Shown here in pieces: positions 1-23,159 of a stretch of 64,000 nt of DNA. Source of the DNA: Eledone cirrhosa (taxonomy: Eukaryota); assembly GCA_964016885.1 (NCBI GenBank), contig OZ024741.1, positions 264,926,001-264,990,000 on the forward strand. The letters are read 5' to 3'. The position numbers were made by a program, and so were the translations under genes. The notes below the pieces were generated by a model, which worked only from the letters and a program-made list of their open reading frames with translations, was not told the DNA's origin and searched no databases. Each line of letters opens with the position of its first letter. The first letter of the stretch is position 1.

Positions 1-1099
1 CAGGTGTGGTCGCCGTTTGCTAGACGCGTTTTTCCCCAGCTCGTTTCCTTGACGGAGCTGCAGTCCTGGGTCAAGCGAAGACCGAGAGGGAGCGCCTGGA
101 GACTGGAATGTCTTCAGGCGCTCACAGCCCTCGACCAATCGGGCAATGTGATCGGTGGAAACTCCACCTCGGCGTTCTATAGAGGATTAGTGGAGGGGAA
201 GAGCGACGACGTACTTGGGGAAACTCTAGGCGTCGACGAAAATCAACTAGCCAATCTCTTCGGAAGAACTTTCGGGCCGGGGCCTATGGACAACTTCCAG
301 AAATCTCTGGCCTGGCAGTGCTACCGAGGAGCCTTGCCAGTTCGGGATAAACTCTACAGGCATGGAGGTGCCGTCAGCCGGGCATGTCCGAGATGCGCGC
401 AGGGCGACGAAACCGTCCTGCACGCACTCGTCCAGTGTCCGAAAATTGCTGACTTGTGGGTTTATGTCGAACACCTGCTGTCGCGTTTAGGACGGATCCA
501 GCTATCATCTGAGTCTATCGTGAGGATTGCCCCGCCCTCCTCCTTTAGCCGGGAAGGGCAGGCAGTTTTTATCTGTCTGGTGGCCATGGCGAAAGAGATA
601 GTATGGTGGACACGTTTGAAAGGGCTGAAGACGAGCACTTACCTCTTCGGTGATGCTCTGATTGACTTTTTCAAATTTCATTTGAAAAGGAAAATCAGAG
701 TAGAGAGGGAAGTGCTCTCTTCCCAGCATTTTGTTGAAAGATGGGTGAGAGAAGCAAGAATGGCCCGAGTGAATGGGCCGACTCTGAGTATATATCTGTA
801 AACTAAAGGTGGAAAACTGGGAGAGGGCACTTGCCTTGGTGGTCAGGGTCATTGTGGCTTTTTACTGGGCTTTCTCCACAAATGTCCCTCCGAAGTCTCC
901 CCCCTATTGGGGAATTTTTCATTGTTATTTTCATTGTTATTTTTGTTACATCCTCTGTTTTTGTTTTTTTACACGCAGAAATGCCCATTTGTACCGTCCT
1001 GCATTGTCCTGCACTGTCCTTAATGTCTACTTTATGTAAACCCTTGTGGTTAATAAAGAAATCATTATTATTATTATTATTATTATTATTATTATTATT
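1..1099 (+). mobile_element. 3' part of a Tx1-type (L1 clade) non-LTR retrotransposon: ORF2 C-terminus, 3'UTR, AATAAA, (TTA)n tail
   Basis: Near-identical to 6047-7137 (offset 6046; about 4 substitutions seen). ORF 4..801 carries the CPRC-x8-H-x4-C zinc motif. AATAAA near 1052 is followed by (TTA)n. Confidence 0.93.
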
Positions 1100-1313
1100 G
1101 AATGCCATGGTTGACGGAGGCTCGGCTCTGTAAGGTATAGTAATTTTTAACCGTTAAAACAATTGTAAATTGTTTAAAACTTGAACCAAATTGTTGATAA
1201 AGACACCCTCCTCCTCGTGAGAGGGGTCTTTCTGTCCGTTATTTGGCCCTTCGGGGTTAAATAACCAGTTATTGGGGTTTTGTACCCAATATTCATTTTA
1301 AACAAAAAACAAC

Positions 1314-3392
1314 ATGGCTACGAAAAAGAAATTTCATACGTCACTCCCACTCATTCCGTCTTCTTCTTCCTCAATCATCACTACAGCAGAGAGAAGATTG
1401 TCTCTCTCCCTCCCTTCTTTAAATGTGTCTCTCTCCCTCCCTTCTCTTTCGCAAGCGACGAAAGAAAAGAAAAGTCTCGTGCAAAGCGTGCAAGGTTTCT
1501 CCACGACGACGACGACAGAGACGAAACAGGTGTGCGGGAAATACGAAAACCCAGTTCATTCGTCTGACGTCAGGAATAATAGCAGTAGCAGCCGTAATAA
1601 CAACAGCAACAGTGACAATGAAAACAACAGTAGCAGCCGCAACAGCATCACCAGCAGCATAAACAACAACAGCATTAGCAGCAGCAACACCAACAACAAC
1701 CACAGCAACAGCGGCGGAGGCAGTCGTCGTAGTACCTGCAGCAACAACAAAAGTACCAGCAGCTCTGACGACAACAACAACAGCAGAGAAAAACCAATCT
1801 CATTTGCAGGTATTGCGAAAAACTTGGAAACAATCCTCATAACAAATGAGGAATTAGAGGAAGCGAAGAAGATGGTGACAAAGAACGGACACCGAGCAAT
1901 CTGCAAGGCAGCGAAAAATTTTTTCGAAACCCAAGAGCACTGTACGGTCACGTACCGTACAGTAAGTACAAAATCCCGTAGGGTGGAAAGAGCCACAGAG
2001 GCCCAAATACAAAAAGCCTTGGGGTCTGTGTGGCAGCGGAAAACGCACATCACCCGAGGCAAAAAATATTCCACCGTAGACGTACTTTTTGCCACACCCC
2101 AGGAGGCAAAGGCCCAATCAGTAGTGACCCTAAGGAGCGAGGAAATGGTGTTGGTGCCCTCCTACTGCGGGCAAAAAATTGTGAGGGTCAAACTGACCCA
2201 CGTCCCACCCGGAATGACCCCTTCTTGGCTGGCCGCGTCTGTCCTCGTCGGAATCGAGGACAAAACAACTGTACTGCAAGTACAGAAAAAAGTAAGAGAA
2301 GATTGGGTCGGCTCCTCCATTGAGATGCTAATCCAAACCAACCAGGAGTGCATCGAAGCTATCCCGGATGTGATAGACTTCGATAACGGCATTCAACTGC
2401 CCATAAGTGTTGAGGGCAAACGCCCGAAATGCTTTCGCTGTGGATCGAAGACTCACCTCAGGGCCTTCTGCAACGAGAAGACCCTGAGAAAGGAGAAAAC
2501 CCCCCTCCTTCCGAATCCGGCTCCACGGCTACCAGCAACAGGACAAGCGGCAACCAGGAACGATAGGTCCGTGGCACCCATACCCACTCCACGGAAATCA
2601 AAAACAGCAGCAGCAGTGGAAATATTAACAACAACAACAGCAATACCAAATGCAGCTGCAACAGAGACTCCAGTGCAAACATCACCAACAACAAGTGAAA
2701 GAGTGGAGCTGGTACCCCTCCCCGACCTCACAGAATCAGACATGGAGTGTGAGGTGGGAGAGGGATGGCAAAAGGTCGTAAGAAGGCACAAACGCAGAAG
2801 CAGCGCATCGTCGCCTTTGAAAAGGGAGGAAAGAAATGAGAAAAGGGTAAAGTCTACTGCAAAGAGACCCACAGCAGCAACAACACCAACACCATCACCA
2901 CCCACACTAGCACCACCATCACCACCGCCAACAACACCTTTAACACCACCACCACAAGCACCAACATCGCAAACACAACAACAAAACACACACACCCAGC
3001 AACAACGACAAGAAAATAGCAGAACCACACCCCACCCCCAGAAAAACAAATGCACGGCAATAAACACACACAACAAGAAACTAATGACTTACATAATTGA
3101 ACACACAGACATTTCACAACAGGACTACATAATACCAGCACCAATCAAAACGCCAACTAACATAAGACTGCTAAAAATAGCACAGAAACAATACACAAAC
3201 ATTAAAACGAAATTCCCCAACGCAGTTGGTGATTTCAGGGACCTAGGAGGAACCATTAATCGAAGAGTATATTCAGACATTCTCTTAGAAGAGCCGACGA
3301 CCAGCCGAAGGGACGATTCAACGGTCCCTTCACCAGACGATCAAGTGAAAAGGGATGTAAAAACCATCCCTCCTCTACCAAAAATACGGTAA
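1314..3392 (+). CDS. Tx1 ORF1 (gag-like nucleic-acid-binding protein with zinc knuckle)
   Basis: 692-aa ORF with CCHC knuckle CFRCGSKTHLRAFC, low-complexity N/S and P/T tracts, A-rich context before the ATG, directly upstream of an APE-RT ORF. Confidence 0.88.
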   Translation: MATKKKFHTSLPLIPSSSSSIITTAERRLSLSLPSLNVSLSLPSLSQATKEKKSLVQSVQGFSTTTTTETKQVCGKYENPVHSSDVRNNSSSSRNNNSNSDNENNSSSRNSITSSINNNSISSSNTNNNHSNSGGGSRRSTCSNNKSTSSSDDNNNSREKPISFAGIAKNLETILITNEELEEAKKMVTKNGHRAICKAAKNFFETQEHCTVTYRTVSTKSRRVERATEAQIQKALGSVWQRKTHITRGKKYSTVDVLFATPQEAKAQSVVTLRSEEMVLVPSYCGQKIVRVKLTHVPPGMTPSWLAASVLVGIEDKTTVLQVQKKVREDWVGSSIEMLIQTNQECIEAIPDVIDFDNGIQLPISVEGKRPKCFRCGSKTHLRAFCNEKTLRKEKTPLLPNPAPRLPATGQAATRNDRSVAPIPTPRKSKTAAAVEILTTTTAIPNAAATETPVQTSPTTSERVELVPLPDLTESDMECEVGEGWQKVVRRHKRRSSASSPLKREERNEKRVKSTAKRPTAATTPTPSPPTLAPPSPPPTTPLTPPPQAPTSQTQQQNTHTQQQRQENSRTTPHPQKNKCTAINTHNKKLMTYIIEHTDISQQDYIIPAPIKTPTNIRLLKIAQKQYTNIKTKFPNAVGDFRDLGGTINRRVYSDILLEEPTTSRRDDSTVPSPDDQVKRDVKTIPPLPKIR

Positions 3393-21900: not shown

Positions 21901-22783
21901 GTTTTTTTTGTGTTTGTTTGCATGTAAGGAGCATTGTCACATGTCCTATGTTTTTGCGTAGGTCAGCACTCTTTTTTTCTATTTTAGTTATATATGATGG
22001 TATCTTTGGTAGTGTTTTGTTCTTGTTAATATCTCTGCTATCACCAAGATAATGCTTCACTGTCATTGCTAAGGCATATAAACAGGCGTTGATTTGCAAA
22101 ATGTTGGGGTTTTATCCGTCGTAAATATTCATCCCCTATTTTGTCAATAACACGTAGTATTTCATTTGGTTTTTTATTCACCATCGTCATTTTAACACGT
22201 TCAGCCAGAGAAATGTTTATACATGAGTTAATTTCTCTCTGGAAGATTTCGTTGAGGGAAATTTTCAATTGTTTATACTTTTGATTATCATTATCGATAG
22301 TATTTTCCACAATAGTAGAGGTAGACTCAGAAGGTATACGTGGTGTCACATTTATTCGATTATTATTATTATTTCTTCGATTATTATTATTATCGATAGT
22401 GTTTTCCCCAGCATTCGAGGTAGACTTAGATGGTACAGGTGGTGTCAAGTTTCTTACAAGCATAGTTGTTTCAAGGCGCTGTTCGACCTGGCTGCTAGGA
22501 AGTCTAGTAACATGGCGATCTGTAGCACGTGTTGTTGATTCCATGTTTGTTGTGGGGGACTTACAATTAATAATATTTATCTTATTTTTACGTTCAATAA
22601 ACGTCGCTTGTTGGCGTAATTGTTTTGCTGTGAAATAATTTAGCTCTGGGTGCATTTCGTCCCAGTGTAGCTTCATTCTGTTCATATAGCCAATGGAGGG
22701 ATTGTTTTTTGCCATTTTATAACAATTAAATAAATCATTATTAAGTTCGCAACTCAAAGAGAAATGCTATTTATAATTTCTTT
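18963..22783 (-). mobile_element. Near full-length, decayed R4-clade non-LTR retrotransposon embedded in (CATA)n
   Basis: Frameshifted ORFs 22041-22757 (R4/Dong-like N-terminus CY..GYMNRMKLHWDEMHP..QLRQQ), 21158-22099, 20471-21121, 19940-20416 (RT) and 19191-19985 (CRLC..H..C, RHD, RPD..VEISCP..KE). (CATA)n at both junctions. Confidence 0.9.
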
Positions 22784-23159
22784 ATGTATGTATGCATGTA
22801 TGTATGTATGTATGTGTGTGTATGTATGTATGTATGTATGTATGTATGTATGTATGTATGTATGTATGTATGTATGTATGTATGTATGTGTGCGTGTGTG
22901 TATATATATATATAGATATATACTTACATTTTTGTAATTTTTTAATGTTTTAATTCCTTTAAAATTTTAAAAAAGTTTTAAAATTATTTTTAAAATTATT
23001 TTTAATTACTTCCAATTATTTTTAATTATTTTAAATTATTATTTTTAAATTACTTTTCTTAAAATCATTTTTTAATATATTTTCTTAATTATATTTAAGC
23101 GCTTATGTTTGCTTTCGTATGCCTTCACATGCCTCAGTCTCTTGTGGGAAAATCTGCAT

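What the first reader, a model, noticed from the sequence alone, without database searches (positions are those of the whole stretch)
1..22900. Retrotransposon nest in which one clade's tail is another clade's target
Seen: 23 kb of LINEs abut through microsatellites with strict polarity. APE-type elements lie on + and end in (TTA)n (Tx1) or (GTAT)n (RTE and its derivative). RLE-type R4-clade elements all lie on - and sit inside the complements, (TAA)n and (CATA)n. Known: Dong elements target (TAA)n. Inference: tails laid down by Tx1 and RTE create the landing sites for R4-clade families, and each insertion regenerates repeat, giving a self-feeding two-clade system that could explain TE clusters and microsatellite abundance.
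Basis: partly seen in the sequence, partly recalled or inferred. Interest (0 to 1): 0.7.

Follow-up and report, generated by a model that had tools for sequence, protein, structure and literature searches.

The report
Retrotransposon guilds share two microsatellite targets
Several unrelated jumping genes are stacked here inside two short DNA repeats, with the two enzyme types facing opposite ways, likely because each cuts a repeat that was already there rather than one clade building the other's landing site; one of them (an RTE, a group described as not choosy) sits almost always in TA/TG repeats and carries inside itself the ATT repeat in which a 36-kb pile of the others lies.

Summary
The polarity is real and genome-wide. 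The "tail makes target" reading is mostly wrong. Tx1 and the RTE family have the repeat at their 5' junctions too: Tx1 28/28 full-length copies elsewhere; the RTE derivative 14/16 copies in an unbiased sample against a 10% background. At irregular sites no tail lies between element and target-site duplication. R4 copies are not enriched at Tx1 tails (5/29 vs 9/59). They abut RTE heads (12/29) at least as often as RTE tails (14/58). In this window the Tx1 copy is younger than the R4 copy beside it.

Best model: two co-targeting guilds, (ATT)n (Tx1, a SINE, two Dong-like families) and (TATG/TA)n (RTE, its derivative, two other R4-like families). APE and RLE enzymes likely nick opposite strands. 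The link between guilds is the RTE: it lands in (TATG)n and carries (TTA)n in both UTRs. Its 5'-UTR tract here holds 36.4 kb of insertions, including five independently inserted Tx1 copies. A 2.3-kb duplication doubles two of the R4 pieces.

The scan found both guilds before on other DNA of this genome; the RTE-carried landing pad was not in the notes I saw.

The parts
1..1063 (+). 3' end of the 4th of five tandem full-length Tx1-like LINEs (array runs 23.2 kb upstream of the window)
1064..1099 (+). (ATT)12 spacer, a piece of the split target
1100..7109 (+). Full-length Tx1-like LINE; ORF1 1314-3392, ORF2 (APE+RT+zf-RVT) 3428-6847, both open
7110..7154 (+). (ATT)10 plus T17 (poly(A) on the R4A strand, unlike 29/29 other R4A copies)
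7155..9761 (-). R4A: 5'-truncated Dong-like RLE element in (TAA)n, one frameshift near 8040
9762..9849 (+). Right half of the RTE's internal 5'-UTR (TTA)n tract; the left half and RTE head lie about 26.6-27.0 kb upstream of the window
   Evidence: head 96% identical to intact copy L309
9850..13601 (+). RTE-like LINE body: APE+RT+C2H2 fingers with two in-frame stops; 3' UTR with internal (TG)/(TTA)/(TA) tracts
13602..13671 (+). (ATGT)n, the shared target of the second guild
13672..14252 (+). Non-autonomous bipartite RTE derivative (607-nt family)
14253..16616 (.). Unit 1 of a 2.3-kb tandem duplication: 5'-inverted derivative 14278-14881, derivative head 14935-15009, stuffer, 38-nt R4B 3' end (-) 15219-15256, derivative 15611-16217, R4C fragment (-) 16270-16589
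16597..18848 (.). Unit 2 of the duplication, same junctions
18964..22782 (-). R4B: R4-like RLE element lacking about 310 nt of 5' end, ORF broken, flanked by (CATA)n on both sides
22783..22911 (+). (TATG)n closing the nest
26662..27073 (+). 5'-truncated derivative copy with (TA)n on both sides instead of (TATG)n

Best explanation
The 23 kb is the right half of a two-level nest in which APE-type elements (Tx1, a SINE, RTE and its derivative) and RLE-type R4/Dong-like elements sit in the same two microsatellites on opposite strands, likely because each enzyme cuts a pre-existing repeat on its own strand. Shown: Tx1 and two Dong-like families sit in (ATT/TAA)n; RTE, its derivative and two other R4-like families sit in (TATG/CATA)n or (TA)n; the repeat is present at both junctions; and the RTE carries (TTA)n in both UTRs. 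In this copy the 5'-UTR tract is split by 36.4 kb of insertions (a Tx1b fragment, R4D, five Tx1, R4A). Inferred: the APE enzymes nick the A-rich strand (TAA, CATA/TATA) and the RLE enzymes the T-rich strand, which fixes the polarity. Each target-primed insertion splits the array and duplicates 9-20 nt, so the number of landing sites grows and slippage can lengthen them. The RTE links the guilds by landing in (TATG)n and delivering (TTA)n, but it supplies only a small share of ATT arrays. There is no fixed order of clades.
For: Tx1 5' ends in (ATT)n: 30/30 loci, 28/28 outside this array; both sides 16/16 full-length copies. Derivative 5' flank with a TA/TG run of 12 nt or more: 14/16 copies in the unbiased sample (8/9 loci, p=1e-7 against 10.4% background), 56/58 in derivative-selected loci, 15/16 of their truncated copies. 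The 3' repeat type follows the 5' flank (rho 0.39, p=3e-5, n=112). Duplications with no added tail: L178, L201, L206 (derivative), L389 (Tx1). Known empty sites: derivative inside the RTE 3'-UTR (TA)n (L290); R4A and SINE inside the RTE 5'-UTR (TTA)n (L305, L313, L069); SINE/Tx1 inside (AAT) codons of R4B (L374, L392, L389). The same RTE>Tx1>R4A>Tx1>RTE nest recurs on another contig (L042/L337). The RTE 5'-UTR site is occupied in 10 of 22 other copies that keep it. 3'-end strand counts: Tx1 64 ATT/0 TAA of 75; R4A+D 59 TAA/1 ATT of 67; RTE types 110 TATG/0 CATA (43 TA) of 172; R4B+C 100 CATA/0 TATG of 115. Each of the five array Tx1 copies has its nearest relative on another contig.
Against: No cleavage assay and no polymorphic empty allele. 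Only 17 of 40 Tx1 alignments had (ATT)n at the 5' end once truncated and diverged copies were included (some ends are alignment limits), and the SINE mostly enters short ATTAT motifs. So the real target may be a short motif, with arrays growing after insertion. RTE 5' junctions are less uniform: 26 of 37 listed had a run of 12 nt or more, and about ten of those are an internal tract of a second derivative. R4B/C are modestly enriched at RTE-type tails (p=0.037; p=0.09 without the two hits that defined library entries). Searched loci are the best 30 of 40 scored by identity to the window copy, so they lean young; the background is only 770 kb. Clade names rest on architecture, not on a tree with named references.
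Confidence: 0.75

Rival explanations
1. Tail-seeding cascade: Tx1 and RTE write (ATT)n and (ATGT)n tails at ordinary sites and R4 families then colonise those tails.
For: RTE elements create SSRs between their target duplications in Lepidoptera (PMC2887409, passages). R4B/C face RTE-type 3' ends in 14/58 vs 8/77. Many truncated Tx1 copies have a long 3' (ATT)n without a 5' one.
Against: Repeat at the 5' junctions, no tail at irregular sites, heads more enriched than tails, no enrichment at Tx1 tails, Tx1 younger than R4A here, and Tx1 also found inside R4B coding sequence.
Confidence: 0.08
2. Weak short-motif preference plus later growth: the APE elements only need an AT-started motif (ATTAT, ATGT/ATAT), perhaps pairing with the RNA 3' end. 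Duplication and slippage then grow arrays on both sides, and those arrays feed the R4 families.
For: SINE duplications start with ATTAT in mostly non-array sites. 122/126 derivative 3' junctions begin with AT. RTE 3' repeats are proposed to steer cleavage or priming (PMC6007223, passages). Arrays next to elements are longer than free ones (33 vs 15 nt; 78 vs 42 nt).
Against: Young copies already have long 5' arrays; insertions into element-internal tracts whose uninterrupted state is known (L290, L305, L337).
Confidence: 0.12
3. Passive accumulation and DNA-level duplication: elements survive in tolerant regions, and arrays arise by unequal exchange.
For: The 2.3-kb unit is a DNA-level duplication; several search hits are near-duplicates (L011-13, L323-326).
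Against: Base-precise junctions with strand polarity across contigs; Tx1 array members are closest to dispersed copies.
Confidence: 0.05

Closest known systems
Dong, DongAg, DongBg (R4 clade, (TAA)n-targeted; PMC3812793, PMC7998251, passages)
   Same: R4A and R4D have RT plus a C-terminal CCHC/RHD/PD-type nuclease and sit in (TAA)n on both sides.
   Different: R4B and R4C (50% identical to each other, 26-39% to R4A/D) sit in (CATA)n, sometimes (CA)n. I found no such target for R4 in the searches; ACAY is reported for R1-clade Waldo.
Kibi (TC)n, Koshi (TTC)n, crocodilian Tx1 (TTCC/TTTC)n (PMC4494074, passages)
   Same: Two-ORF APE element of the L1 group inserted in a microsatellite.
   Different: Target is (ATT)n and is shared with an RLE clade from the other strand.
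RTE elements with SSR 3' ends (PMC2887409; PMC6007223; PMC13295347; octopus RTE in PMC9115989; passages)
   Same: Single APE+RT ORF, microsatellite-rich 3' UTR, duplication starting with A.
   Different: Described as not sequence-specific, with the SSR between the duplications; PMC13295347 states that among APE clades only Tx1 and R1 hold site-specific LINEs. Here the repeat is at both junctions and forms the duplication itself.
Bipartite non-autonomous RTE LINEs (PMC5786205, passages)
   Same: The 607-nt derivative joins an RTE-like 5'-UTR piece to an ORF end (C2H2 remnant) and a 3' stem-loop like the RTE's.
   Different: Its exact autonomous partner was not identified (68% identity to this RTE's 5' UTR).
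Tx1L in Tx1D; crocodilian Tx1 in Mariner/Harbinger (PMC4494074, passages)
   Same: One mobile element serves as landing site for another.
   Different: Here the target is a microsatellite carried in a LINE's UTR, it is not exclusive, and it is used by two clades.

Membership tests
Tx1 clade (1100-7109) | ORF1 plus ORF2 with APE, RT and C-terminal zinc finger; L1 group | tested here: met
   Pfam PF03372, PF00078, PF13966; best solved match L1 ORF2p, E 3e-52; CCHC knuckle visible in ORF1
Tx1 clade (1100-7109) | RT tree placement with named Tx1 references | not testable with these tools
   Homologues returned without names; the name Tx1 is from architecture and recall
Tx1 clade (1100-7109) | Target-site specificity | tested here: met
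   (ATT)n at 5' end 28/28; both sides 16/16 full-length; weaker for truncated copies
R4/Dong clade (R4A-D) | Single ORF, RT followed by CCHC, RHD and PD-(D/E)xK nuclease, no APE | tested here: met
   Motifs in all four families; best solved matches are R2 proteins (R4A only)
R4/Dong clade (R4A-D) | (TAA)n target as in Dong | tested here: met
   R4A and R4D only: 59/67 3' ends in TAA
Dong proper (R4B, R4C) | (TAA)n target | tested here: not met
   100/115 3' ends in CATA, none in TAA
R4/Dong clade (R4A-D) | RT tree placement with named R4 references; N-terminal Myb/SANT domain | not tested
   Homologues of R4A unnamed; Atlas gave no answer
RTE clade (9850-13601) | Single ORF with APE and RT, no ORF1 | tested here: met
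   full-length homologues of 1,050-1,200 aa with APE+RT(+C2H2)
RTE clade (9850-13601) | RT tree placement with named RTE references | not testable with these tools
   No named RTE among hits; the name is from architecture and recall
RTE clade as described (not site-specific, SSR between duplications) | Insertion at unrelated sites with an element-made tail | tested here: not met
   Repeat at both junctions; no tail at L178, L201, L206
Bipartite non-autonomous RTE | 5' part plus 3' part of an RTE, ORF absent | tested here: met
   68% match to RTE 5' UTR, C2H2 remnant, shared CTCG-N4-CGAG 3' hairpin

The most novel reading that the evidence does not exclude
An RTE lineage has become a microsatellite-targeting LINE, a third APE clade with site specificity besides Tx1 and R1. 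It lands in (TATG/TA)n and ships (TTA)n landing pads in its UTRs, so it couples two guilds in which APE and RLE elements share one repeat from opposite strands. A single RTE insertion can thereby nucleate a stack of tens of kilobases.
Probability: 0.55. Interest if true: 0.72.

Novelty: new variant of a known kind. Interest (0 to 1): 0.52.

Why it matters
If confirmed, target specificity arose in RTE as well, and three targets would be added (ATT for Tx1, CATA for R4, TA/TG for RTE) that I did not find in the papers searched. Sister enzymes with different targets, and unrelated enzymes with the same target, make a natural set for mapping what sets LINE target choice. The finding also gives a concrete route to large gene-free TE stacks in a microsatellite-rich genome, and it warns against reading a 3' repeat as a tail without checking the 5' junction.

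Tried and rejected
Tandem duplication as origin of the five-copy Tx1 array: rejected (nearest relatives dispersed, 5/5; the margins are small, 0.35-0.55% vs 0.43-0.67%). Counting six independent R4 events: rejected (duplication). Treating R4B at 18964-22782 as full-length: rejected. Protein searches gave no clade names; the Atlas gave no answer. The metagenome scan gave four RTE relatives; the one long contig (42% identity) shows no (TATG)n after its ORF, and its 3' end could not be defined, so it says nothing on how widespread the targeting is. Our-findings look-up by sequence was empty. A larger background sample was not obtained, so the enrichment tests rest on 770 kb. Rows dropped before counts: the window's own loci, near-duplicates L012/L013, copies within 45-60 nt of a locus end, and 7 of 29 RTE loci that lack the 5'-UTR site.
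Full report
Setting. The window lies in a 3.0-Gb animal genome, likely an octopod. That is an inference from the microsatellite load and from active RTE, Dong-R4 and L1-Tx1 families as annotated in Octopus vulgaris (PMC13282606, passages). Clade names below rest on domain architecture and recall; no tree with named references could be built.

Observation. Elements cover 92% of 1-22,900, and the gaps are (ATT)n or (TATG)n except two 200-nt stuffers. Tx1-like and RTE-like elements lie on +; four R4-like events lie on -. 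All R4-like families show CCHC, RHD and PD-type motifs. In 77 evenly spaced 10-kb stretches (770 kb) I found 67 ATT and 82 TATG arrays. R4 neighbours were on the opposite strand 16/16 and 8/8 times; APE-type neighbours were on the ATT or TATG strand 32/34 and 19/20 times. Counts at 3' ends over all non-window loci agree. The polarity is real.

The nest is larger than the window. Thirty kb upstream show that the Tx1 at 1100-7109 is the last of five tandem copies. Upstream of them lie a second Dong-like family (R4D, 958-aa open frame, minus strand), a fragment of another Tx1 family, and then the RTE's 5' UTR, 96% identical to intact copies and preceded by (TATG)14. Intact RTE copies show that this UTR holds a (TTA)n tract and that the 3' UTR holds further (TTA)n and (TA)n tracts. 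So 36.4 kb of Tx1 and R4 insertions split one RTE at its own internal microsatellite. Of 29 other RTE loci, 7 lack this site, 12 have it empty and 10 have a Tx1, SINE or R4 element at it. L305 and L313 show RTE on both sides; L317 and L318 are near-duplicates. L042/L337 repeats the whole architecture on another contig. In the unbiased sample, however, only 3 of 67 ATT arrays had an RTE neighbour, so the RTE is a minor supplier.

Tails are targets. All 30 full-length Tx1 5' ends fetched are preceded by (ATT)n, 28 of them outside this array, and 16/16 full-length copies have it on both sides. Each array member's nearest relative is on another contig, which points to five separate insertions, although the margins are small. 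The RTE derivative has a TA/TG run of at least 12 nt before its 5' junction in 14/16 unbiased copies (8/9 loci, p=1e-7, background 10.4%) and in 56/58 derivative-selected loci, including 15/16 truncated copies. The figure over all loci, 116/126, is inflated by loci chosen for R4 neighbours. The 3' repeat type tracks the 5' flank (rho 0.39), as at 26662-27073, where both sides are (TA)n. Tay et al. (PMC2887409, passages) call an SSR element-made if it lies between the duplications. At irregular sites here the duplication follows the element directly, with nothing between (L178, L201, L206; Tx1 in L389). L290 is a derivative inside the RTE's own 3'-UTR (TA)n. Against this reading: only 17/40 Tx1 alignments had a 5' (ATT)n once truncated and diverged copies were counted, and the SINE mostly uses short ATTAT sites. 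A short-motif model with later array growth remains open.

R4A 3' ends face a Tx1 3' end in 5/29 loci against 9/59 background arrays (p=1.0); with the SINE, 11/29 against 13/59 (p=0.13). R4B/C 3' ends face RTE-type 3' ends in 14/58 against 8/77 (p=0.037; 12/56, p=0.09 without two self-defined library hits). But R4B 5' ends face RTE-type heads in 12/29 against 8/79 (p=0.0005). Tail-seeding predicts tails only; co-targeting predicts both. Ages, as distance to the majority of the fetched copies, are: Tx1 0-0.8%, R4A 2.3%, RTE 1.7-4.4%, R4B 1.8%, R4C 0.6%, derivative 1.3-2.0%. So R4A predates the Tx1 beside it. Elsewhere, 11/28 young Tx1 heads abut the 5' side of R4A or R4D, and Tx1 or its SINE enter (AAT) codons of R4B. 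31/67 ATT and 61/82 TATG arrays have no neighbour from my incomplete library.

Mechanism (inferred). Duplications begin ATTAT for the SINE and AT for the derivative (122/126). This fits first-strand nicking on the A-rich strand by APE enzymes, and the opposite orientation of R4 elements fits nicking on the T-rich strand. Each insertion splits the array and duplicates about 9-20 nt, so landing sites multiply. Pairing of the RNA 3' end with the primer could contribute (PMC6007223, passages).

Known and new. Dong in (TAA)n, Kibi/Koshi in (TC)n/(TTC)n and Waldo in ACAY are known (PMC3812793, PMC4494074, PMC7998251, PMC4640811; passages). PMC13295347 (passages) says that among APE clades only Tx1 and R1 hold site-specific LINEs. 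PMC9115989 (passages) notes a microsatellite-rich 3' UTR in an octopus RTE but, in the passages seen, no target. Bipartite RTE derivatives are known (PMC5786205, passages). Searches showed no report of RTE targeting microsatellites, of R4 in (CATA)n, of Tx1 in (ATT)n, or of shared targets. I read no supplements, and Kojima and Fujiwara 2004 and Repbase reports were not seen; they may list such targets. Earlier notes of this scan, consulted after my reading was formed, describe both guilds on other DNA of this genome; they are unchecked and not independent support. None of the 16 notes shown mentioned the RTE-carried landing pad.

Verdict. Real and ordered, but a co-targeting system rather than a tail-to-target cascade. 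The most surprising parts are the target-choosy RTE and its role as carrier. New variant of a known kind; interest 0.52.

Noticed in passing
window 14278-14881 and 16623-17225: RTE derivative with its first 149 nt inverted, like a twin-priming 5' inversion; similar inversions in L152, L231, L206.
   Followed up: partly
window 7138-7154: This R4A copy ends in A17, whereas 29/29 other copies end in AAAGAAC-like sequence then (TAA)n; unexplained.
   Followed up: partly
L374, L392, L389 (R4B positions matching window about 22300-22390): SINE and Tx1 insertions into the (AAT)n asparagine codons of R4B: an R4 element carries a target for the Tx1 guild.
   Followed up: partly
L214, L355, L279, L283: A second short RTE derivative: about 300 nt of this RTE's 5' UTR joined to its last 40 nt.
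   Followed up: no
L014; L093, L101: A Tx1 3' end running into (CTT)n, and R4B 3' ends in (CA)n: relaxed targets.
   Followed up: no
window 39766-41088 (-): Open frame with a p25-alpha (TPPP) Pfam hit at residues 9-58, E 3e-15: likely a host exon 17 kb from the nest.
   Followed up: no
window 24900-60100: Many copies of a 185-nt SINE ending in ATTAT, several as inverted pairs; about 2% of the random sample, with 7-20 nt duplications.
   Followed up: partly
window 15353-15572: (TGCG)55 inside the TATG array of duplication unit 1 only; arose or was lost after the duplication.
   Followed up: no
window 44055-44763, 47884-49588, 60594-62420: Local tandem arrays (97-nt unit and two longer satellites).
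   Followed up: no
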